In this document: in pieces, positions 8,457-50,016 of the stretch
Layout: each line of letters begins with the position of its first letter
How positions within the stretch are numbered: position 1 is the stretch's first letter
Virus record (IMG/VR): IMGVR_UViG_3300031555_010338
Source: a virus
Taxonomy: Duplodnaviria > Caudoviricetes
Reading direction: 5' to 3' (one strand)
DNA: 64,000 nt
The notes under the pieces: generated by a model
Told to the model about the DNA's origin: nothing
What the model saw: only the letters and a program-made list of their open reading frames with translations
Databases searched by the model: none
Position numbers and translations under genes: made by a program

Positions 8457-8691
8457 TCTTTTCTTTGAATATAAAATGGTGTGCCGTACAGTAAAATTAT
8501 AGAGCGTGTGTTCTAACTGCTTAAACCTGCCACCATGAAATCGGTTATCACGCCATCACCGACCATGCAAGCAGCGTCCGGTGTAGATTATCGGCACACA
8601 GTTTTGGGCTTTATAAAGCCACGGGAACAAACCTCCCTTCAGCGGAAGTACGAATTTCGCCTTATAGGTTACTTTGATTGACTATATCCCG

Positions 8692-43038: not shown

Positions 43039-43094
43039 GCTCCGTCCTCCTTTCGTTTCAAAATAAAAAAAACACACGATTTCTCGTGTGTTGC

Positions 43095-43170
43095 TGGTGC
43101 GCCTGAAGGGAGTTGAACCCCCGACCATCGGCTTAAAAGGCCGCTACTCTACCAACTGAGTTACAGGCGC
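43095..43170 (-). tRNA. tRNA-Lys(UUU)
   Basis: Cloverleaf, loop CU-UUU-AA, encoded CCA. Confidence 0.92.
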
Positions 43171-43233
43171 ATACTTCCGGTTTGCACGGTTTCCCCCACT
43201 TATTTAACGTCCATTGGTGACTCTCTTTAGACA

Positions 43234-43302
43234 CAAGACATGACATATTTGACCAAAAATATGATTTGAAATGGTGGTTCAAGAAATTGCTGTACATGCC
43301 TT
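43234..43302 (-). ncRNA. ACAGCAA stem motif, copy A
   Basis: aaggcat-gt-ACAGCAA...atgtctt-g. Confidence 0.6.
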
Positions 43303-43305
43303 TAT

Positions 43306-43382
43306 TGGTGGATCGGGAAGGTAACGATCCTTCATCCTACGGTTTTTCAGACCGTCGCTCAGACCTCATAAGCTACCGATCC
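43306..43382 (-). tRNA. tRNA-Phe(GAA)
   Basis: acggt-CU-GAA-AA-accgt; atypical T loop AUCGUUA; CCA. Confidence 0.85.
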
Positions 43383-43421
43383 ATATAAACCCAGAGCGCC
43401 GTAGCGCATCTGAGTATGATC

Positions 43422-43514
43422 TGGCGGCGGAAGTAGGACTCGAACCCACAAGCCGCTCATCACGGCCAACAGTTTTCAAGACTGCTCCCCGCACCTACTG
43501 GGGTCAATTCCGCC
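43422..43514 (-). tRNA. tRNA-Ser(UGA)
   Basis: gcagt-CU-UGA-AA-actgt, long variable arm, G73, CCA. Confidence 0.88.
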
Positions 43515-43519
43515 ATATA

Positions 43520-43637
43520 TGGTGGGTGAGGGTGGATTTGAACACACCGAACGGTTGTCAACCGATCTCTTTTACGAAGTAGGGCGACACTCCTACTCTG
43601 CCGGCGAGACTCCTTTGACCTCTTGGTTACTACACCC
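43520..43637 (-). tRNA. Aberrant Tyr-like tRNA with 36-nt anticodon loop (intron-containing or tRNA-like RNA)
   Basis: Acceptor, D, variable and T arms and ACCA recognisable; anticodon loop holds an extra hairpin and ends UCGUAAAA. Confidence 0.55.
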
Positions 43638-43642
43638 ATATT

Positions 43643-43729
43643 TGGTAGGGGAGGTGGGAGTCGAACCCACTCAGCCCGAAAGCAACGGTTTTACAGACCG
43701 CCCCAGCTCTCCGACTCTGGCGCTCCCCT
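43643..43729 (-). tRNA. tRNA-Tyr(GUA)
   Basis: gcggt-CU-GUA-AA-accgt, variable arm, CCA. Confidence 0.88.
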
Positions 43730-43891
43730 ATATCAAGTGCGGCTTCATGACATTTCAGAGGCGCAAAGCCGCAACGCTTTCTCTCCTACTGCCAGCTATT
43801 TCTCCCATAGCCAGGGCGCACTATCCTTGCGAATAGCTAAATACGCCGAACATCCTATTGGAGCGCTTTCACCTTGCGGGACTTCTATTGC

Positions 43892-44737
43892 TTAATTGCC
43901 GGTAGAATTTGAACCATTAACCGTGGCGTATGCTTTTACTGTATTTTTCAGCAATGCAACTCTGGTCATCAGGCCAACGCCGCCAGGAACCGGAGTAATC
44001 GCACTACACTTCTCGCTTACCGATGCAAAATCAACATCACCGCAAAGCTTACTATCTTCGCCTCTATTGATTCCAACATCCACAACAACCGCGCCATCCT
44101 TTACCATATCAGCCATAAGGAAACCAGGCTTCCCAACTGCACAAACGATAATATCTGCGTTTCGTGTGTAAGTAGAAATGTCTTTTGTTTTTGAATGACA
44201 TGTCGTTACAGTGCCACCCATACTGGTCAGCAATGCAGACATAGGTTTTCCAACAACATCACTTCTGCCGATCACAACACAATTCTTTCCCTCGACTTTA
44301 ATATCAAAGGCTTCCAGCAGATCAACAATACCAGAAGGTGTACACGGCATAAACGTCGGCCTACCAAGAACCAGCTTGCCAACACTCTCAGCCCTAAAGC
44401 AGTCCACATCTTTTTCTGGGTGGATATGCTCAATTACTGCGTTCTTGTCGATATGCTGCGGAAGAGGAAGCTGCACCAAAATACCGTCAACATCGTTTCG
44501 ATGATTTAGCGTCTGTACAGCGACAATTAAATCGCTTTGAGCTACTGTATCGTCAAAACGATATACACGGCAATCAATACCGCATTCCTCGCAATCCTTC
44601 TCCTTACCTCTGACATAAGCCTGAGAAGCAGGATTGTTACCTACCATGATTACGGCAAGCTTTGGTGGTCTTGCGAAGTTAGATATCGTTCTTCTTATTT
44701 TTTCTTTTTCTCTTGCGGCAACTTCCTTGCCGCTCAT
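43892..44737 (-). CDS. folD: Bifunctional methylenetetrahydrofolate dehydrogenase/cyclohydrolase
   Basis: YVRGK, GILVQLPLP, KDVD, PCTP, VIGRS.VVGKP, DVGIN, ITPVPGGVG. Confidence 0.95.
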   Translation of the reverse strand: MSGKEVAAREKEKIRRTISNFARPPKLAVIMVGNNPASQAYVRGKEKDCEECGIDCRVYRFDDTVAQSDLIVAVQTLNHRNDVDGILVQLPLPQHIDKNAVIEHIHPEKDVDCFRAESVGKLVLGRPTFMPCTPSGIVDLLEAFDIKVEGKNCVVIGRSDVVGKPMSALLTSMGGTVTTCHSKTKDISTYTRNADIIVCAVGKPGFLMADMVKDGAVVVDVGINRGEDSKLCGDVDFASVSEKCSAITPVPGGVGLMTRVALLKNTVKAYATVNGSNSTGN

Positions 44738-44775
44738 CAGAATGTAACTAATAGAAATCAGTCCTTACATGAATT

Positions 44776-44867
44776 TGGTGCCGGCAGTAGGACTCGAACC
44801 CACAACCTGCCGCTTATCTGGCGCAACGGGGTATAATTCCGCTGCTCTACCATTGAGCTATGCCGGC
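44776..44867 (-). tRNA. tRNA-Ile(UAU) with long variable arm
   Basis: Loop AU-UAU-AC; extra arm with loop CA-GAU-AA; A73, CCA. Confidence 0.75.
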
Positions 44868-44874
44868 ATACAGT

Positions 44875-44949
44875 TGGTGCGGGTGGAGGGAATTGAACCC
44901 ACGACCTTGTGATTAAGAGTCACCTGCTCTACCGCTGAGCTACACCCGC
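44875..44949 (-). tRNA. tRNA-Lys(CUU)
   Basis: Loop CU-CUU-AA, CCA. Confidence 0.92.
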
Positions 44950-44968
44950 AAACATGGATGAAAGAAGA

Positions 44969-45074
44969 CAAGACACATAAGAAAGGGAGGTGAATGAAAG
45001 AAAGGAGCTGCTTATGGAGAAAGCACATTGTAAAAAACATAGTTTTGATTTTGTTATTTTGCTGTGTGTGTCTT
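44969..45074 (-). ncRNA. ACAGCAA stem motif, copy B
   Basis: aagacac-ac-ACAGCAA...gtgtctt-g. Confidence 0.6.
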
Positions 45075-45081
45075 TGTTGTT

Positions 45082-45156
45082 TGGCAGGAGCTGAAGGACT
45101 CGAACCCTCACGAACAGTTTTGGAGACTGTCATGCTACCGATTACATCAAGCTCCT
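45082..45156 (-). tRNA. tRNA-Trp(CCA)
   Basis: acagt-CU-CCA-AA-actgt. Confidence 0.92.
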
Positions 45157-45157
45157 A

Positions 45158-45235
45158 TGGGGTGGATGACGGAACTCGAATCCGCGACCTTTGGAGCCAC
45201 AATCCAACGCTCTAAGCCATCTGAGCTACATCCAC
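45158..45235 (-). tRNA. tRNA-His(GUG)
   Basis: ttgga-UU-GUG-GC-tccaa, C73; no encoded G-1. Confidence 0.9.
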
Positions 45236-45236
45236 A

Positions 45237-45313
45237 TGGCGACGCATACGGGACTTGAACCCGTGACCTCCGGCGTGACAGGCCGGCGTTCTACTCTTCT
45301 GAACTAATGCGCC
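45237..45313 (-). tRNA. tRNA-Asp(GUC)
   Basis: ccggc-CU-GUC-AC-gccgg. Confidence 0.92.
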
Positions 45314-45317
45314 ATAT

Positions 45318-45394
45318 TGGTGATGCGTATGGGGCTTGAACCCATAAATTCCAGCGTGAAAGGCTGGTGACTCTACCAATTCGTCCAACGCACC
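45318..45394 (-). tRNA. tRNA-Glu(UUC)
   Basis: ccagc-CU-UUC-AC-gctgg. Confidence 0.92.
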
Positions 45395-45398
45395 ATAT

Positions 45399-45485
45399 TG
45401 GTACTGCTAATGGGACTTGAACCCATACGAGATTTCTCCCACCAGCCCCTCAAGCTGGCGTGTCTGCCTATTCCACCATAGCAGC
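45399..45485 (-). tRNA. tRNA-Leu(GAG)
   Basis: ccagc-UU-GAG-GG-gctgg, variable arm. Confidence 0.9.
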
Positions 45486-45490
45486 ATATT

Positions 45491-45745
45491 TTATTCATTC
45501 CAATCAATTAGGGGATATAGATCGTAGGGTGAATTACCAGTTACCAACTTCTCATATCCTCCATCCACAATGCGCCAAAGCGTATGCTTTTTCTTTTCTG
45601 GATTTTGACTGATCTGATATTGCTTACCAGACTTTGTTTTACACAACACACCAGTACCGCATTCAGAAGCTGGAAGTTTCTTGACAACCTTTGATGTCTT
45701 TTCTTTTACAACATTTGCTGCCTTTCTCGGCATATATTCACCCAC
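45491..45745 (-). CDS. Small basic hypothetical protein within tRNA array
   Basis: 84-aa ORF filling a gap between tRNAs. Confidence 0.6.
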   Translation of the reverse strand: MGEYMPRKAANVVKEKTSKVVKKLPASECGTGVLCKTKSGKQYQISQNPEKKKHTLWRIVDGGYEKLVTGNSPYDLYPLIDWNE

Positions 45746-45861
45746 TTATATATAATGGCAAGGCGCTTCCAGTTGGAAGCCTTATTACGGCAAGCGGGTC
45801 ATGAATCCGCAATTTCTGCTATAACAACTTGTGCGCACAAGCCCCTTCGCAGATCCACCTC

Positions 45862-45938
45862 TGGTACTCCCAACGGGACTCGAACCCGTATTACCGGCTT
45901 GAGAGGCCAGCCTCCTATTCCAGTTAGAGGATGGGAGC
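45862..45938 (-). tRNA. tRNA-Glu(CUC)
   Basis: ctggc-CU-CUC-AA-gccgg. Confidence 0.9.
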
Positions 45939-45949
45939 ATATAAACAAA

Positions 45950-46040
45950 TGGCTGGGGTAGCAGGACTCGAACCTGCGGACGAGGGTAAACCTCTTGTCG
46001 GAGTCAAAGTCCGATGCCTTACCAACTTGGCGATACCCCA
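45950..46040 (-). tRNA. tRNA-Gln(UUG) with non-canonical long variable arm
   Basis: tcgga-CU-UUG-AC-tccga, U1-A72, G73; extra gagg-tttac-cctc hairpin. Confidence 0.85.
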
Positions 46041-46047
46041 ATATAAA

Positions 46048-46124
46048 TGGTACGCCAGAGAGGACTCGAACCCCCAACCGTAGGATTAGAAATCCCATGC
46101 TCTGTCCAGTTGAGCTACTGGCGC
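46048..46124 (-). tRNA. tRNA-Arg(UCU)
   Basis: tggga-UU-UCU-AA-tccta. Confidence 0.92.
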
Positions 46125-46127
46125 ATA

Positions 46128-46201
46128 TGGAGATACCGATAGGATTTGAACCTATGATCCTGGGGTTGCAACCCAGAGCCTTCCCACTTGGCTACGGTAT
46201 C
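46128..46201 (-). tRNA. tRNA-Cys(GCA)
   Basis: ctggg-UU-GCA-AC-cccag, U73. Confidence 0.92.
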
Positions 46202-46205
46202 ATAT

Positions 46206-46282
46206 TGGTACGCCTGGGAAGACTCGAACTCCCGACACATCGGTTCGTAGCCGATTGCTCTATTCCACTGAGCTACAGGCGC
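46206..46282 (-). tRNA. tRNA-Arg(ACG)
   Basis: atcgg-CU-ACG-AA-ccgat. Confidence 0.92.
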
Positions 46283-46399
46283 ATAAAAGAAGGAGCCTAA
46301 ACAGCGCCAACAATGCCTTACACATCGGCTGTCGCCATCCAATAGGAAGTCTCAGGGTTACTGGTTTGCTCCTTGGCCTACTAAAAACCCTTGTTCGGT

Positions 46400-46487
46400 T
46401 GGTGCTGGCGGTGGGACTTGAACCCACACGGTATTGCTACCAACGGATTTTGAGTCCGCCGCGTCTGCCGATTCCGACCACGCCAGC
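46400..46487 (-). tRNA. tRNA-Leu(CAA)
   Basis: gcgga-CU-CAA-AA-tccgt, variable arm. Confidence 0.9.
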
Positions 46488-46494
46488 ATAAAAA

Positions 46495-46562
46495 CAGAGC
46501 GCCTTGTTTTGGTTGTATCAGTTAAAAGTTGATTCCAGAAAGAAAGTTGCTGTAAGCGCTCT
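46495..46562 (-). ncRNA. ACAGCAA stem motif, copy C
   Basis: agagcgc-tt-ACAGCAA...gcgctct-g. Confidence 0.6.
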
Positions 46563-46566
46563 TGAA

Positions 46567-46653
46567 TGGTACAGGAGACAGGACTTGAACCTGCACGACC
46601 TTGCGGCCAATAGACTCTGAATCTACCGCGTCTGCCAATTCCGCCACACCTGC
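46567..46653 (-). tRNA. tRNA-Leu(CAG)
   Basis: gtaga-UU-CAG-AG-tctat, variable arm. Confidence 0.9.
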
Positions 46654-46659
46654 ATATTG

Positions 46660-46735
46660 TGGAGTAGATGACGAGACTTGAACTCGCAACAGCCAGCTTG
46701 GAAGGCTGGAACTCTACCAGTTGAGCTACATCTAC
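46660..46735 (-). tRNA. tRNA-Gly(UCC)
   Basis: ccagc-CU-UCC-AA-gctgg, U73. Confidence 0.92.
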
Positions 46736-46738
46736 AAA

Positions 46739-46814
46739 TGGTACACGATGACGGGATCGAACCGCCGACATCATCCTTGTAAGGGACGCGCTCTCCCTGC
46801 TGAGCTAATCGTGC
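46739..46814 (-). tRNA. tRNA-Val(UAC)
   Basis: cgtcc-CU-UAC-AA-ggatg. Confidence 0.92.
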
Positions 46815-46977
46815 GTATTGGCCTACTCACACCGCAGGCCGTGGTGTCGGCTCGTACTTCGCCCACCGATTTGCGTCGGTTTTACTCCCAAAACCTTGTA
46901 AAAGTCATCACTGCCAGATGTGAAGGTTTCCATTTCCCATTCAGTTTACAGTCTCCGCTCTGTTTGTGGGACGGGCA

Positions 46978-47052
46978 TGGTTGCGGGGGTGGGACTCGAA
47001 CCCACGATTCCCAGCTTATGAGGCTGGTGAGATGCCGCTTCTCTACCCCGCA
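46978..47052 (-). tRNA. tRNA-Met(CAU), initiator-like acceptor stem
   Basis: ccagc-CU-CAU-AA-gctgg; acceptor tgcgggg/ccccgca; lacks the three G-C anticodon-stem pairs of fMet. Confidence 0.85.
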
Positions 47053-47175
47053 ATATATACCGTGGATAGACCACGGGCATACGGCGTTGCGCCTAATGTG
47101 TTTGATGACAGTTCTAAAATCAGCACCAGTGCAGGCACTGGCCTCTTCTAAACTCCCTGTCATGTTTTGTTCTGC

Positions 47176-47251
47176 TGGCTGGCATGGTGGGACTCGAACC
47201 CACGACATACGGATTAACAGTCCGCCGTTCTACCAACTGGACTACACGCCA
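47176..47251 (-). tRNA. tRNA-Asn(GUU)
   Basis: gcgga-CU-GUU-AA-tccgt. Confidence 0.92.
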
Positions 47252-47259
47252 ATATCTAA

Positions 47260-47371
47260 CGAGACGCATCAATTCCATTTTGTGAAAACACCTCGGCGTT
47301 TACCGCCGAAACTTGATAAATTCAAACTTACCTTTTTTCTTCATCATATAGAAAGTTGCTGTTCGCGTCTC
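47260..47371 (-). ncRNA. ACAGCAA stem motif, copy D
   Basis: gagacgc-ga-ACAGCAA...gcgtctc-g. Confidence 0.6.
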
Positions 47372-47381
47372 TATGTATGTT

Positions 47382-47438
47382 CAAGGCACATCATCTTCTT
47401 TTACCGCAAAAAGTATGTAGTGTTGCTGTTCGTGCCTT
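47382..47438 (-). ncRNA. ACAGCAA stem motif, copy E
   Basis: aaggcac-ga-ACAGCAA...gtgcctt-g. Confidence 0.6.
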
Positions 47439-47463
47439 TGTTATTTTGCGCGGAATTTCCGCG

Positions 47464-47539
47464 TGGTCTGAGTGGTGGGGATCAAACCCACGGCCTCGTG
47501 ATCCCAAATCACGCGCTCTATCATCTGAGCTACACCCAG
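47464..47539 (-). tRNA. tRNA-Pro(UGG)
   Basis: cgtga-UU-UGG-GA-tcacg. Confidence 0.9.
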
Positions 47540-47544
47540 ATATT

Positions 47545-47965
47545 TGGTGGAGTAGGCGGGAATCGAACCCGCGTCCGAAATTCCTACATGTACAAAACAT
47601 TCTTACGCAATAGTCGATAGTTTCTGCATTTACCGAATGGAAGGCTGCTTAGATGATCGACACAACAAATGCCCAGGGCGCACCGGTTTAGTGGCCTCCA
47701 CCACCTTGTTTCTTTTCACAGTGACAAGGAAAACTGCAATGCTGGCTGAATCATTATCCTCAGACGCTCACCCAACCAGAGGTGCGTCGTTTTGGTATCC
47801 GAACTGCTGTTAAGCAGCAACCCTCTCTGCCACACAAGCGGCCAGTGCAGGATGGATCATAACGAAAACTTCAGTGTTGTCATTTCATTTTTGTTTGAGC
47901 CGTAAGGAGGACTCATACCTGCGTGTTTTGCACTCTCAAAACCCCGTCGAACCCATTACTACCCC
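47545..47965 (-). ncRNA. ssrA: tmRNA
   Basis: 5' GGGGUAGUAAUGGGUUCGAC; 3' UUCGGACGCGGGUUCGAUUCCCGCCUACUCCACCA; G3-U70 pair; tag ORF ending VAA*. Confidence 0.92.
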
Positions 47966-47979
47966 ATATTAAATTGTAG

Positions 47980-48055
47980 TGGTCGAGACGAATGGGATTG
48001 AACCATTGACCTTTCGATTATCAATCGAATGCTCTACCAACTGAGCTACGCCTCG
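47980..48055 (-). tRNA. tRNA-Ile(GAU)
   Basis: ttcga-UU-GAU-AA-tcgaa. Confidence 0.92.
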
Positions 48056-48172
48056 ATATTAGGCCATGCGTCCGAAAAACCTCGTCTGCAGCCGATAGGT
48101 TTTTAGCTGAGATAGCAGTAAAAGTAATGAGCTGAACCGCACAAACGCTAACATAACCAACATGGCACATTC

Positions 48173-48248
48173 TGGTGGAACTGATGGGGGTCGAACCCAC
48201 GACCTCCTGCTTGCAAGGCAGGCGCTCTCCCAACTGAGCTACAGCCCC
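48173..48248 (-). tRNA. tRNA-Ala(UGC)
   Basis: cctgc-CU-UGC-AA-gcagg, G3-U70. Confidence 0.93.
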
Positions 48249-48254
48249 AGGTAT

Positions 48255-48276
48255 TCCCGCCCCTTTCGGGGCAGGA
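48255..48276 (-). promoter_or_regulatory. GC-rich hairpin (GAAA loop) downstream of VR2, probable DGR target-recognition hairpin
   Basis: tcctgcccc-gaaa-ggggcggga, 17 nt after the stop codon. Confidence 0.6.
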
Positions 48277-48293
48277 GTTTTTAGGTTATAAGG

Positions 48294-49097
48294 TTAGCAA
48301 CAGAAGCCGAAGGACACGCCACAACTGGTGCCGGCGCCGTTAAGGTTGGCGTCGCCGCCGCTGGAAACAGAACAGAAACTCGCGGAGATGCTGGAAAGAG
48401 GAGAACGCAGAAAATTCCATCGTCGATCTCCAAAATCGTCTTCCTTGTAGTATGGGACATCTTCCTGTTTATAGAACTCATACCACTTACCCTCTCCAGG
48501 GACAGAGTAAAAACATCTACCGTATAATTCCTTCTCGCTTTTCAACCACAGTTTACAGACACTCTTGACGATTTCCTTGCTACAGTTACCAGCGCTGGTC
48601 AACTTAATAACAGGCTTAATAATCGCCTGAATATCATCAGAACACAAATTGATAATCTCATCGTTTAACCTACGATTCATATCACAGGCATCCCAACCAC
48701 CACGATTCGTGCAGTCTTGATTCATCCGCATGTCTTCTTTGTAAATATTCACCATATCCCAAGAAATGGGAGCCTTACCGGAGCCATCAGCAAGATCGTC
48801 GTGGTCAAAACCAATAATCTGCCATACAGCAACGAAGCCGTTCTTCATGTAGTCCTTCTTCTGAGCGCCAAGAGCAAATGTCTCTCGCGCCTTACCAGAA
48901 CGACCAACATCATCAATTTTATCCCACGAAAGATGGTTGAGATCCTTCATTGGAAGCGCCATAGGCGCAACAAACCCAATGTCCAGCGGCTCATGCTTCA
49001 TCTCCGAACCAAAGTCGAATGTCACGACACCATTGTTACACGAGATATTCAAAGAGCCAAACCTTCCGATATCTTTCTCACTGATACTGACCTGCAT
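48294..49097 (-). CDS. DGR target 2: stand-alone DUF6273-like (C-type lectin-fold) protein
   Basis: Paralog of target 1 C-terminal domain (QIIGF.HD.LADG.G; N.GGW..C.M; LRSP...GVSFGFC). Confidence 0.85.
   Translation of the reverse strand: MQVSISEKDIGRFGSLNISCNNGVVTFDFGSEMKHEPLDIGFVAPMALPMKDLNHLSWDKIDDVGRSGKARETFALGAQKKDYMKNGFVAVWQIIGFDHDDLADGSGKAPISWDMVNIYKEDMRMNQDCTNRGGWDACDMNRRLNDEIINLCSDDIQAIIKPVIKLTSAGNCSKEIVKSVCKLWLKSEKELYGRCFYSVPGEGKWYEFYKQEDVPYYKEDDFGDRRWNFLRSPLSSISASFCSVSSGGDANLNGAGTSCGVSFGFCC
48301..48408 (-). repeat. DGR variable repeat VR2 (remote)
   Basis: Ungapped 108-nt match to TR 8692-8799 with 22 mismatches, all at TR adenines. Confidence 0.95.
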
Positions 49098-49130
49098 TCA
49101 TTAACACTCCCTTGTGTTGTTTAGTTACTT

Positions 49131-49766
49131 CCTTGAAAAATTCAATATCTCAATCACACTCATCATTCGGCCTTCGCCGTACCTCCATTACCTTCTTCCA
49201 ATCTTCTGCCACCAGGGAGACAAGTCTGAGCTTCGGGGAGCGACCCCTAACTTCTTGCCCCAGTCCCCGCCCTAAAAGAGCCGAACCACGAGTCCTGTGC
49301 GGGATTGTTTACCCGCAAATTTCACCGTTCGTTCAGAAATTGTTACTTTTACAATAACGCACCCAATTTGCATTATAGAAAGATCATCTTCTTCTCCGTC
49401 CTACGGCTACTTTAACCGGCGACTTTCGTTATAGCCGAATTTCTTCGACATCAAGACGGAAACGCATTGCTGGCTTTACCTCCGTCATTATGGCTGCCAC
49501 ACCATAACCCCATAGGCTTATTCTTCCACCGGAAGCGTCTATTGCTGCGCCCGAAAGTTCCGTGCATTTTGTAGCGATAACTCTTAGCACCACACATTTT
49601 TGTTGGCGGTTTCCGCCTCCCCACAATACATCGCTGCATCGCAGCCGCCCAGCAATAAAAGGTATCCCTCGTAAGCCAAACGGAAATTACTGCGTGTCTC
49701 TGAGTGCTGACGCACTTTGTTCACAGAGTTAATAATAAGCATGATTCAGATATTGAATTTTCAAGG
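49131..49766 (-). ncRNA. Large structured ncRNA, ROOL-like
   Basis: ~630 nt without a credible ORF, closed by a 25-bp terminal inverted repeat, many internal hairpins, inside a phage tRNA operon; family assignment from recalled similarity, not a search. Confidence 0.7.
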
Positions 49767-49771
49767 TTCTT

Positions 49772-49847
49772 TGGAGCTGGTGACAGGAATCGAACCCGCA
49801 ACCCACTGATTACAAATCAGTTGCGCTACCTGTTGCGCTACACCAGC
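49772..49847 (-). tRNA. tRNA-Thr(UGU)
   Basis: actga-UU-UGU-AA-tcagt. Confidence 0.92.
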
Positions 49848-49880
49848 AGATTGTTTAGTTAGTTCCTCTTGACAAGTATT

Positions 49881-49909
49881 ACTATACCAGACAGAAACCG
49901 ATTTGTCAA
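49881..49909 (-). promoter_or_regulatory. SigmaA promoter for the RNA island
   Basis: TTGACA-17 nt-TATAGT with extended -10 TG and AT-rich upstream element. Confidence 0.8.
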
Positions 49910-49940
49910 TAGGAATTAGCAAAATAATTTCAAAAATTTT

Positions 49941-50016
49941 TGGTGGCTGGGATCGGACTCGAACCGATGTCTCCAGCTTATGAGGCTGGCAAGAAAACCA
50001 ACTTCTCCACCCAGCC
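49941..50016 (-). tRNA. tRNA-Met(CAU) (elongator or Ile2)
   Basis: ccagc-CU-CAU-AA-gctgg, G1-C72. Confidence 0.88.

What the first reader, a model, noticed from the sequence alone, without database searches (positions are those of the whole stretch)
43234..47438. Five dispersed copies of an unrecognised structured RNA motif (7-bp stem + NN + ACAGCAA) between tRNAs
Seen on the transcribed strand at 43234-43302, 44969-45074, 46495-46562, 47260-47371 and 47382-47438: a 7-bp closing stem, exactly 2 nt, invariant ACAGCAA, a variable insert (total length 57-112 nt), the complementary strand, then G. The stems differ yet pair (aaggcat/atgtctt, aagacac/gtgtctt, agagcgc/gcgctct, gagacgc/gcgtctc, aaggcac/gtgcctt), which is direct covariation. 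The 7 bp + 2 nt + 3' G geometry mimics a tRNA acceptor stem and discriminator without CCA. Copy C has a Lys-like CUUUUAA loop. I cannot assign it to a family. Inference: small RNAs released by tRNA processing, with a constant protein-binding handle and variable payload (nuclease decoys, antitoxin mimics or guides).
Basis: partly seen in the sequence, partly recalled or inferred. Interest (0 to 1): 0.88.

Follow-up and report, generated by a model that had tools for sequence, protein, structure and literature searches.

The report
Phage handle RNAs, Ro60-like partner
Five small RNA genes hidden among this gut phage's tRNA genes share one conserved "handle" (a short helix next to the letters ACAGCAA). 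The same handle turns up in hundreds of phages that also encode a Ro60-like ring protein, so these are probably an uncatalogued, Y-RNA-like class of viral small RNAs.

Summary
Five copies on the minus strand each have a 7-bp closing helix, 2 nt, ACAGCAA, an insert of 33-88 nt, the partner strand and then G. No Rfam family reaches its threshold.

They are not confined to this phage. A pattern scan of IMG/VR found the module in many phages, with covarying helices. It was always on the tRNA strand (90 of 90 copies within 300 nt of a tRNA).

Outside the window, the same genome has at least 8 more copies directly upstream of a DUF2828/vWA gene. My model of that protein matches only Ro60/TROVE structures as full-length hits.

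Co-occurrence is strong:
- 35/49 motif-bearing records carry DUF2828, against 1/50 controls.
- 79/80 loci around viral DUF2828 homologues carry modules, almost all upstream on the gene strand.

Payloads often hold a canonical anticodon-arm look-alike (copy C: Lys CUUUUAA). A circularly permuted form of the module sits inside tRNA-shaped genes.

Best reading (about 0.6): Y-RNA-like partner RNAs of a phage Ro60-like protein, cut out of the tRNA transcript. Binding, expression and function are untested. The handle also matches the hallmark of Dictyostelium Class I RNAs, but the copies fail that Rfam model.

This scan has already noted the same family on more than 50 other genomes. I found no published description.

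The parts
43234..43302 (-). Copy A: AAGGCAU-GU-ACAGCAA, 45-nt insert, AUGUCUU-G (69 nt). It begins 3 nt after tRNA-Phe and lies upstream of tRNA-Lys and the operon terminator.
   Evidence: model R1 37.3 bits (it was in the training set)
44969..45074 (-). Copy B: AAGACAC-AC-ACAGCAA, 82-nt pyrimidine-rich insert, GUGUCUU-G (106 nt). The payload holds a 5-bp hairpin with loop UCUCCAU (Gly-UCC-like, but with C at position 33).
   Evidence: R1 partial match 20.6 bits, E 0.007 (not in the training set)
46495..46562 (-). Copy C: AGAGCGC-UU-ACAGCAA, 44-nt insert, GCGCUCU-G (68 nt), between tRNA-Leu(CAG) and tRNA-Leu(CAA).
   Evidence: orthologues 87-91% identical in L101, L090, L072, L100 and others, with a G-C to A-U swap at helix pair 6; weak RF01414 match of 21.4 bits
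46517..46533 (-). Anticodon-arm look-alike inside copy C: AUCAA-CUUUUAA-CUGAU. The 7-nt loop is identical to that of the phage's own tRNA-Lys(UUU).
   Evidence: read from the sequence; enrichment across the family
47260..47371 (-). Copy D: GAGACGC-GA-ACAGCAA, 88-nt structured insert, GCGUCUC-G (112 nt). It ends 8 nt before tRNA-Asn.
   Evidence: (fold z-score -3.97); R1 partial match 18.1 bits (not in the training set)
47382..47438 (-). Copy E: AAGGCAC-GA-ACAGCAA, 33-nt insert, GUGCCUU-G (57 nt). It lies 10 nt upstream of D and 25 nt after tRNA-Pro.
   Evidence: R1 44.5 bits (it was in the training set)
43095..50016 (-). Host operon: 27 tRNA genes plus tmRNA (47545-47965) and ROOL RNA (49149-49752), all on the minus strand. 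The five copies sit in its spacers.
43071..43092 (-). Intrinsic-terminator-like hairpin with a U run that ends the operon right after tRNA-Lys.

Best explanation
The five elements are genes for small non-coding RNAs of an uncatalogued viral family, which I call 'ACAGCAA-handle RNAs'.

How they are probably made: they are most likely transcribed as part of the minus-strand tRNA/tmRNA/ROOL operon. The enzymes that trim the flanking tRNAs would then free them.

The constant part (the handle) consists of:
- a 7-bp helix whose junction-proximal pairs are C-R-C/G-Y-G;
- a 5'-side bulge NN-ACAGCAA;
- an A-rich 3'-side strand (often AAU);
- a G after the 3' strand.

I propose that this handle is the binding site for the phage's own Ro60-like ring protein. 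That protein is a 505-aa DUF2828 + vWA protein encoded about 48 kb away, outside the window, at G000:C1:95034-96551, where at least 8 further handle RNAs lie directly upstream.

The variable part is a payload held on the protein: an anticodon-arm look-alike in copy C and other hairpins in A, B, D and E. By analogy with Ro60-Y RNA particles, the payload would tether or titrate proteins that recognise tRNA parts. Possible examples are anticodon nucleases, tRNA-modifying enzymes or exonucleases.

Shown here: the motif, its covariation, its orientation with tRNAs, its co-occurrence with DUF2828, and the Ro60-like fold of the model.

Inferred only: transcription, processing, protein binding and all function.
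For: Motif and covariation:
- The motif and its closure are present in all five copies.
- The family is widespread, with 123 unique closed copies in the pattern-scan loci.
- Six of the 7 helix pairs show double changes.
- In an unbiased sample, 326 of 445 ACAGCAA sites within 3 kb upstream of DUF2828 genes are closed, against 2 of 39 on the opposite strand.

Orientation and operon:
- 90 of 117 unique copies lie within 300 nt of a tRNA, and all 90 are on the tRNA's strand.
- The operon ends in a terminator, and there is no promoter-like site in front of A-E.

Partner protein:
- The genome has one DUF2828/DUF7788(vWA) gene.
- The AlphaFold model has pLDDT 77.5.
- The 13 best PDB matches are all Ro60/TROVE over the full length, including Thermus phage phiLo Ro60, Xenopus and human Ro60 and Deinococcus Rsr. 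E-values run from 6e-8 to 1.5e-4 and TM-scores (TMq) from 0.40 to 0.56, with 12 of the 13 at 0.46 or above.

Co-occurrence:
- DUF2828 is present in 35/49 motif-bearing virus records (12/13 of those at least 90% complete), against 1/50 control records.
- 79/80 viral loci around DUF2828 homologues carry modules. Of 343 modules, 341 are on the gene's strand and 327 are upstream. A reversed-core control gave 6.
- 55/68 bacterial or MAG contig loci with at least 1 kb of upstream sequence also carry them.

Parallel with Y RNAs:
- Known Y RNAs have a closing stem with the Ro60 site on the 5' strand plus a tRNA-like module, and are encoded near Ro60 (PMC4201824; PMC12135203).
- Payloads here carry anticodon-arm look-alikes (44/102 against 3.9 in shuffles).
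- 120/131 permuted modules sit inside tRNA-shaped genes.
Against: - There is no expression or end-mapping data.
- No binding test was possible.
- The five window copies are 48 kb from the protein gene, unlike classical Y RNAs, which lie within about 2 kb.
- The handle lacks the GNCGAA/CGAA motif that canonical Ro60 proteins contact. The protein also does not hit Pfam TROVE by sequence, so Ro60-style recognition is an analogy, not a demonstration.
- The co-occurrence counts come from related phages and are not phylogenetically independent.
- One virus record estimated as complete carries modules but no DUF2828 (G013).
- Payloads A, B, D and E have no recognisable orthologues and no canonical anticodon loop.
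- The second helix that I drew after the bulge is barely above what base composition alone gives.
Confidence: 0.6

Rival explanations
1. The handle is read by a host or other phage factor and not by DUF2828, for example an RNase, a tRNA-modifying enzyme or an RRM-type protein such as the one that binds Dictyostelium Class I RNAs. Under this reading, DUF2828 merely shares a pathway or a phage lineage with the RNAs.
For: - The window copies lie 48 kb from the DUF2828 gene.
- One complete record has modules but no DUF2828.
- The only protein shown to bind an ACAGCAA-type RNA directly is the RRM protein Rnp1A in Dictyostelium (PMC7919456).
- The handle lacks the canonical Ro60 CGAA motif.
Against: - The linkage is very tight and directional. 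327 of 343 modules lie within 3 kb upstream of the gene, 201 of them within 500 nt, and they are on the same strand.
- The linkage holds down to about 45% protein identity and in contigs assigned to several bacterial phyla.
Confidence: 0.17
2. The module is a selfish or intron-like insertion. It is a roughly 43-nt element that inserts into the anticodon arms of tRNA genes, and also persists as free-standing copies in tRNA arrays, with no function for the phage.
For: - One tRNA-shaped gene in this genome (L009:2809-2925) becomes a perfect tRNA-Asn(GUU) if 43 nt carrying the hairpin and ACAGCAA are removed from the 5' strand of its anticodon stem (and reading).
- 120/131 permuted modules lie inside tRNA-shaped genes.
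- Payloads turn over fast.
Against: - Helices differ between copies within one genome yet keep pairing. That argues for selection on RNA structure, not for recent copying.
- Orientation relative to tRNAs is strict and linkage to one protein family is tight.
- No target-site duplications or mobility genes were seen next to the copies.
- Bacteria have no known machinery for splicing such inserts (my own knowledge).
Confidence: 0.08
3. They are processing devices for the tRNA operon: a small self-cleaving ribozyme or a nuclease entry site that separates neighbouring tRNAs, as theta (HDV-like) ribozymes do in gut phages.
For: - They sit in tRNA spacers a few nucleotides from tRNA ends.
- tRNA-linked ribozymes do exist in gut phages (PMC10879173, listed; not read).
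Against: - No ribozyme family of Rfam matches, even at E <= 5-10. The only ribozyme hit is Twister-sister at 46543-46611 (19.6 bits against a gathering score of 34, E 1.9). It clips the 5' end of copy C and runs into the neighbouring tRNA-Leu, and I take it as chance.
- The layout cannot form the HDV-like nested pseudoknot, because there is no partner for a P2 strand downstream of S3.
- Most tRNA junctions in the same array lack the module.
- The module also occurs inside tRNA-shaped genes, and in arrays upstream of a protein gene with few tRNAs to separate.
Confidence: 0.05
4. They are extremely reduced ('armless') tRNAs that still decode codons.
For: - Short copies have a 7-bp end helix, a connector, a canonical anticodon arm and a short 3' connector, about 60 nt in all.
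- The loops keep tRNA-specific features, such as G37 with the Pro UGG anticodon.
Against: - There is no CCA, although the phage's real tRNAs encode it, and the phage has no CCA-adding enzyme gene.
- There are no D or T arms for bacterial EF-Tu, the ribosome or the synthetases (my own knowledge).
- Only one of the five window copies has a canonical loop.
- The phage already encodes tRNAs for all 20 amino acids.
Confidence: 0.03

Closest known systems
Ro60/Rsr with Y RNAs: bacterial and phage YrlA/YrlB, Deinococcus Yrn1, and Yrl1/Yrl2 of Thermus phage phiLo (PMC4201824; PMC12135203; Rfam RF02553)
   Same: - Small RNAs (about 60-130 nt) closed by a helix.
- A conserved protein-contact element on the 5' strand, next to a bulge.
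- A variable module that mimics tRNA parts.
- Several paralogues per genome.
- In the second cluster of this genome, genes lying directly upstream of a ring-shaped TROVE-like + vWA protein gene.
   Different: - The conserved element is NN-ACAGCAA beside C-R-C/G-Y-G pairs, not GNCGAA/CGAA.
- The protein is DUF2828/DUF7788. It is Ro60-like only by predicted fold (12-18% identity to solved Ro60 proteins), with no Pfam TROVE hit.
- Payloads show anticodon arms, which YrlA lacks.
- Many copies, including all five here, are scattered in a tRNA operon far from the gene.
- A circularly permuted form sits inside complete tRNA-shaped genes.
- There is no RtcB in this genome.
Class I RNAs of dictyostelid social amoebae (Rfam RF01414; PMC7919456)
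   Same: - Size of 42-65 nt.
- A short helix joining the 5' and 3' ends, whose sequence varies while pairing is kept.
- A conserved single-stranded motif immediately 3' of the 5' strand. The Rfam consensus reads ...C-CUUACAGCAA.
- A variable remainder.
- Conserved bases after the 3' strand (UG in the Rfam consensus; G, often GU, here).
   Different: - Only copy C matches the Rfam model, at 21.4 bits against a gathering score of 41.5. About 25 modules in 11 related loci give nothing at E <= 1.
- The helix is 7 bp here against 6 bp.
- There is no DUSE promoter. The RNAs here sit in an operon, whereas Class I RNAs are single genes.
- The known direct binder in Dictyostelium is an RRM protein, Rnp1A.
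- The authors reported the class as absent outside Dictyostelia.
Phage T4 species 1 and 2 stable RNAs (rnaC, rnaD) in the T4 tRNA cluster
   Same: Small stable RNAs of unknown function, encoded at the end of a phage tRNA operon and annotated next to tRNA-Arg.
   Different: There is no helix + NN + ACAGCAA module in either. rnaD only has CACAGCAG near its 3' end. T4 has no DUF2828-type gene in that region.
Theta (minimal HDV-like) ribozymes next to phage tRNAs (PMC10879173)
   Same: Short structured RNAs found beside tRNA genes of gut phages.
   Different: No Rfam HDV-type or other ribozyme model matches, and the architecture is incompatible with the HDV double pseudoknot. I did not read this paper beyond its abstract.

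Membership tests
Rfam RF01414 Dicty_Class_I_RNA | Score at or above the curated gathering score (41.5 bits) | tested here: not met
   Copy C scores 21.4 bits and the other four give no match at E <= 10. No match at E <= 1 in 11 related loci holding about 25 modules.
Rfam RF01414 Dicty_Class_I_RNA | Short helix joining the 5' and 3' ends, structure conserved but sequence variable | tested here: met
   7-bp helix in all five copies. Six of 7 pairs covary across 41 family members. Caveat: those members were chosen for perfect pairing.
Rfam RF01414 Dicty_Class_I_RNA | Conserved 11-nt motif next to the 5' strand of the helix (Rfam consensus C-CUUACAGCAA) | tested here: inconclusive
   The last 7 nt (ACAGCAA) are invariant here. 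The preceding positions are variable (NN), apart from the C that ends the helix.
Rfam RF01414 Dicty_Class_I_RNA | Own upstream DUSE promoter about 60 nt upstream; dictyostelid genome | tested here: not met
   The copies lie 3-25 nt from neighbouring tRNAs inside a phage operon. The DUSE requirement is taken from PMC7919456.
Y RNA, YrlA type (Rfam RF02553) | Score at or above the gathering score (69 bits) | tested here: not met
   Only 19-28-bit partial matches, and those fall on ordinary tRNA D/T arms. None falls on copies A-E.
Y RNA, YrlA type (Rfam RF02553) | Ro60-contact motif GNCGAAN0-1G (CGAA) near the 5' end | tested here: not met
   Absent from A-E by reading the sequences. The motif definition is from PMC4201824.
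Y RNA, YrlA type (Rfam RF02553) | tRNA-like domain with D and T arms | tested here: not met
   A-E have none; C has only an anticodon arm. Outside the window, three permuted copies sit in full tRNA-shaped genes, and two open copies enclose T-arm-bearing tRNA-like bodies.
Y RNA, YrlA type (Rfam RF02553) | Encoded close to (within about 2 kb of) a Ro60 orthologue | tested here: not met
   A-E lie about 48 kb from the only Ro60-like gene. The second cluster in the same genome does lie within 1.6 kb upstream of it.
tRNA (Rfam RF00005; ARAGORN) | Cloverleaf recognised by tRNA models | tested here: not met
   No tRNA call on A-E.
Known self-cleaving ribozymes (Rfam hammerhead, twister, twister-sister, pistol, hatchet, HDV-like) | Match to the family covariance model | tested here: not met
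   The only hit is Twister-sister at 46543-46611 (19.6 bits against a gathering score of 34, E 1.9). It clips the first 20 nt of copy C and runs into tRNA-Leu.
Provisional 'ACAGCAA-handle RNA' family (defined in this scan, not published) | 7-bp helix with proximal C-R-C/G-Y-G, 2 nt, ACAGCAA, closure in open or capped topology, G after the 3' strand | tested here: met
   All five copies. Copy A has U instead of C at helix position 7.
Provisional 'ACAGCAA-handle RNA' family (defined in this scan, not published) | Same strand as, and next to, tRNA genes; genome encodes a DUF2828/vWA Ro60-like protein | tested here: met
Ro60/TROVE protein family (for the putative partner) | Sequence match to Pfam TROVE (PF05731) | tested here: not met
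   The Pfam scan lists DUF7788, DUF2828 and VWA_2, plus a sub-threshold vWA_Ro60 hit (E 0.0077). TROVE is not listed.
Ro60/TROVE protein family (for the putative partner) | HEAT-repeat ring plus vWA fold | tested here: met
   In Foldseek against the PDB, ranks 1-13 are all Ro60/TROVE chains aligned over about 500 columns. This rests on a model with pLDDT 77.5, not on a solved structure.

The most novel reading that the evidence does not exclude
The phage Ro60-like protein and its handle RNAs form a new kind of viral ribonucleoprotein. It displays anticodon loops and other tRNA parts as bait, trapping or redirecting host tRNA-targeting defence nucleases or tRNA enzymes. In addition, because the same handle marks the unexplained Class I RNAs of Dictyostelium, the handle and its reader would be an ancient pair shared by viruses and eukaryotes. 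That would point to a missing protein partner for Class I RNAs.
Probability: 0.15. Interest if true: 0.92.

Novelty: new variant of a known kind. Interest (0 to 1): 0.78.

Why it matters
If the reading holds, phages carry a widespread counterpart of the Ro60-Y RNA particle that neither Rfam nor the papers I could search describe. I saw it in hundreds of IMG/VR contigs and in gut-bacterial contigs.

- It uses a different RNA handle and a protein family still labelled "domain of unknown function".
- It would give DUF2828/DUF7788 a first functional context.
- It would explain part of the unannotated spacer sequence in phage tRNA arrays.
- It offers a natural scaffold that presents anticodon arms. 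This bears directly on the arms race over tRNA cleavage between phages and bacterial defence systems.
- The shared signature with Dictyostelium Class I RNAs makes an old open question (what those RNAs bind and do) testable from a new angle.

Tried and rejected
- **Rfam.** Searches at gathering and permissive thresholds gave no family. The only related hit is a sub-threshold RF01414 match on copy C.
- **HDV-like/theta ribozyme and k-turn readings.** Rejected by inspection: there is no P2 partner downstream of S3, and no tandem G-A next to the bulge.
- **T4 rnaC/rnaD.** Fetched and read; they do not carry the module.
- **Acceptor-stem mimicry.** Rejected as the reason for the 3' G, because the G is equally conserved as a loop base in the capped form.
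- **Orthologues of the window copies.** A blastn-short search found them only for C. A, B and E gave nothing, and D gave only a 19-nt handle match.
- **Homologous arrays through the FolD gene embedded in the array.** Only 5 distant loci came back, and I did not pursue them.
- **ARAGORN intron mode on the permuted copies.** It gave inconsistent anticodons for two of three. My deletion scan is robust only for the Asn gene. The other two have loops UAUGGGA and AAGCCAA, with A at position 33.
- **A second helix right after the bulge.** It is only marginally above base composition, so I do not claim it.
- **RtcB and a CCA-adding enzyme.** Both are absent from this phage.
- **Literature.** Searches for DUF2828, phage Ro60 and Y RNA, and ACAGCAA found no description of this RNA family. 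The ACAGCAA search returned only primer noise.

Full report
**1. What is in the window**

The window is part of a 143.8-kb IMG/VR virus record. From 43095 to 50016 the minus strand carries 27 tRNA genes, a tmRNA and a ROOL RNA.

- a 7-nt strand (S5), two nucleotides, then ACAGCAA;
- an insert of 45, 82, 44, 88 or 33 nt;
- the complementary strand (S3), then G.

ACAGCAA is only mildly over-represented in the window as a whole (20 sites against 12.2 +/- 3.2). However, five of its ten minus-strand sites lie in 4.2 kb of tRNA spacers, and all five are perfectly closed. A relaxed scan of the array adds one minus-strand candidate: an ACAGCAG hairpin at 47810 inside the tmRNA, which I take as chance. 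The plus-strand control gave a few imperfect matches.

No Rfam family reaches its threshold.

**2. It is a widespread family**

An exact-pattern scan of IMG/VR returned more than 117 loci. About half were chance hits to the pattern. The other half carried one to seven closed copies each.

Their helices covary freely, for example TAGACAC/GTGTCTA, TCGACAC/GTGTCGA, GGGACAC/GTGTCCC, TAGTCGC/GCGACTA and AAGAGAC/GTCTCTT.

The consensus of 123 unique copies is N-A-G-R-C-R-C, NN, ACAGCAA, YUUU ... (A)AU, G-Y-G-Y-C-U-N, G. On an alignment of 41 short members, six of seven pairs show changes on both sides. Those members were chosen for perfect pairing, so that count is biased.

An unbiased count gives the same picture. 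In loci picked only by a protein gene, 445 ACAGCAA sites lie in the 3 kb upstream on the gene's strand, about 30 times what length predicts. Of these, 326 are closed, against 2 of 39 on the opposite strand.

Of 117 unique copies, 90 lie within 300 nt of a tRNA (median gap about 12 nt), and all 90 are on the tRNA's strand. So the structure is read on the RNA strand of the tRNAs.

**3. A second cluster and a partner gene in the same genome**

Outside the window, at G000:C1:93486-94976, eight more copies stand in a row. One of them has the variant core GCAGCAA. Directly downstream is a 505-aa gene (L009:3535-5052).

I looked for that gene only after earlier notes of this scan named a Ro60-like DUF2828 protein as a recurring neighbour. 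I then tested the claim myself:
- Pfam gives DUF7788 (a vWA domain, E 1.5e-45) and DUF2828 (E 1.8e-34). There is no TROVE hit.
- It is the only such gene in the genome.
- An AlphaFold model built from 12 homologues has pLDDT 77.5.
- Its 13 best PDB matches are all Ro60/TROVE chains aligned over the full length: Thermus phage phiLo Ro60, Xenopus and human Ro60, and Deinococcus Rsr. E-values run from 6e-8 to 1.5e-4 and TM-scores (TMq) from 0.40 to 0.56, with 12 of the 13 at 0.46 or above. Below them come only isolated vWA domains.

**4. Co-occurrence, tested in both directions**

From RNA to protein:
- Of 49 virus records holding closed copies, 35 contain DUF2828 above Pfam's cut-off. Among records at least 90% complete, the figure is 12 of 13.
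- Of 50 control records (chance hits to the same DNA pattern), one does. That one has a closed copy with an atypical helix.

From protein to RNA:
- Of 80 viral loci fetched with the protein alone, 79 hold modules.
- Of 343 modules, 341 are on the gene's strand, 327 are upstream and 201 lie within 500 nt.
- A reversed-core control gives 6.

The association also holds in bacterial and MAG contigs down to about 45% protein identity: 55 of 68 loci with enough upstream sequence carry modules. The closest bacterial contigs are Oscillospiraceae and Clostridiales, which suggests the host.

These counts are not phylogenetically independent, and I could not correct for that.

**5. Anatomy of the RNAs**

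In short copies (55-66 nt) the payload commonly holds a hairpin that obeys the rules of a tRNA anticodon arm: a 5-bp stem and a 7-nt loop Y-U-NNN-R-N. Examples are CUUUUAA, CUGUUAA, CUUGAAA, CUGAUAA and UUUGGGU, the last with G37 as in real tRNA-Pro. Perfect examples occur in 44 of 102 payloads, against 3.9 (maximum 9) in shuffles.

Among the window copies:
- Copy C carries the Lys-type loop, identical to that of the phage's own tRNA-Lys(UUU).
- Copy B has a Gly-like loop with C at position 33.
- A, D and E carry other hairpins.
- Only C has recognisable orthologues in related phages. Payloads therefore turn over fast while the handle stays.

The module also exists in a circularly permuted, capped form: S3, a loop that starts with G (GUAU, GUAC, GUAA ...), S5, NN, ACAGCAA. 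This form is set into the anticodon arm of tRNA-shaped genes. Of 131 such contexts, 120 lie inside tRNA-shaped genes. One of these genes in this genome becomes a perfect tRNA-Asn(GUU) if 43 nt are removed from the 5' strand of its anticodon stem. A first-reader note on this genome made that point, and I confirmed it.

The G after S3 is present in 88% of open copies when it is not required. It is the first loop base in 91% of capped copies. It is therefore part of the module, not a discriminator base, and the helix does not need free ends. A second helix right after the bulge is only marginally supported.

**6. How it most likely works**

What is shown:
- the motif, its covariation and its orientation with tRNAs;
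- its tight, directional linkage to one protein family;
- the Ro60-like fold of that protein's model.

What is inferred:
- The copies are co-transcribed with the tRNAs. The array ends in a terminator at 43071-43092, and no promoter-like site precedes A-E.
- tRNA end-processing frees them.
- The helix-bulge junction with ACAGCAA is the docking site for the Ro60-like ring.
- The payload is presented to other proteins.

This mirrors what is established for Ro60 and Y RNAs. There, a closing stem carries the protein site on its 5' strand, a variable module mimics tRNA, and the RNA tethers Ro60 to partners such as PNPase (PMC4201824; phage example PMC12135203).

What the phage particle acts on is open. 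Because it shows anticodon loops, proteins that read anticodon loops are the obvious candidates.

**7. Comparison with known families**

- **Y RNAs.** The copies work like Y RNAs on paper but fail the YrlA membership tests. There is no CGAA motif, no match to RF02553, no D/T-arm domain in A-E, and they are not next to the gene.
- **Dictyostelium Class I RNAs.** The copies share the hallmark of this class: a short end-joining helix followed by ...CUUACAGCAA, a variable rest and conserved bases after the 3' strand (PMC7919456). They still fail that Rfam model, with 21.4 bits for C only. They also lack the DUSE promoter context. The authors of that class found it in no other organism.
- **T4 rnaC/rnaD.** These are only a conceptual analogue.

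I found no paper describing this phage RNA family or a function for DUF2828. A review of jumbo phages mentions TROVE proteins with a tRNA-like partner only in passing (PMC7824862).

**8. Verdict**

I can now name a candidate protein for it. The acceptor-stem analogy is not supported.

This scan has already flagged the same family on more than 50 other genomes and on the second cluster of this genome. Those notes gave me the lead to DUF2828 and to Class I RNAs. The tests reported here are my own.

Expression, binding and function remain untested.

Noticed in passing
G000:C1:93486-94976 (outside the window; L009:1987-3477): A second cluster of eight handle RNAs lies directly upstream of the DUF2828/vWA gene. 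It comprises two anticodon-arm types (Pro UGG and Ser UGA), one copy in a tRNA-like body, three capped modules inside tRNA-shaped genes, and two open copies whose payloads are tRNA-like. One of these last two has the core GCAGCAA.
   Followed up: yes
window 43515-43642 (-): A tRNA-shaped element of about 125 nt lies between tRNA-Ser and tRNA-Tyr. It has an acceptor-like end, encoded CCA and a T arm, plus a long internal insert. Neither ARAGORN nor Rfam calls it. Fold z-score is -2.2.
   Followed up: partly
window 44776-44867 and 45950-46040 (-): tRNA-Ile(UAU) and tRNA-Gln(UUG) are called at 92 and 91 nt. That is unusually long for these tRNA types and suggests extra arms or inserts.
   Followed up: no
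window 43892-44737 (-): A FolD gene (methylene-tetrahydrofolate dehydrogenase/cyclohydrolase; Pfam E 5e-66) is embedded in the middle of the tRNA array.
   Followed up: partly
window 49149-49752 (-), 47545-47965 (-), 8459-8686 (-): A ROOL RNA (384 bits) and a tmRNA lie in the same operon as the tRNAs. An RT-2 RNA (156 bits), a motif linked to reverse transcriptases, lies elsewhere in the window. Related phages keep the same arrangement of ROOL, tmRNA, tRNAs and handle RNAs.
   Followed up: no
window 44977-45215 (+): Antisense to copy B there is a strong Shine-Dalgarno-like GGGAGGTGA followed by ATG, opening a 73-codon frame that runs antisense through tRNA-Trp and into tRNA-His. It is probably just the complement of B's pyrimidine-rich payload. 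It also gave a weak CRISPR-DR47 hit.
   Followed up: no
window 47053-47175 (-) and 46815-46977 (-): Two further spacers of 120-160 nt in the array have no annotation. The first folds well (z-score -2.8) into two long hairpins. Neither carries the ACAGCAA module.
   Followed up: partly
window 48294-49097 (-): A 267-aa DUF6273 protein gene sits inside the RNA operon, between tRNA-Ala and ROOL. A first-reader note on this window calls it a target of a diversity-generating retroelement. I did not check that.
   Followed up: no
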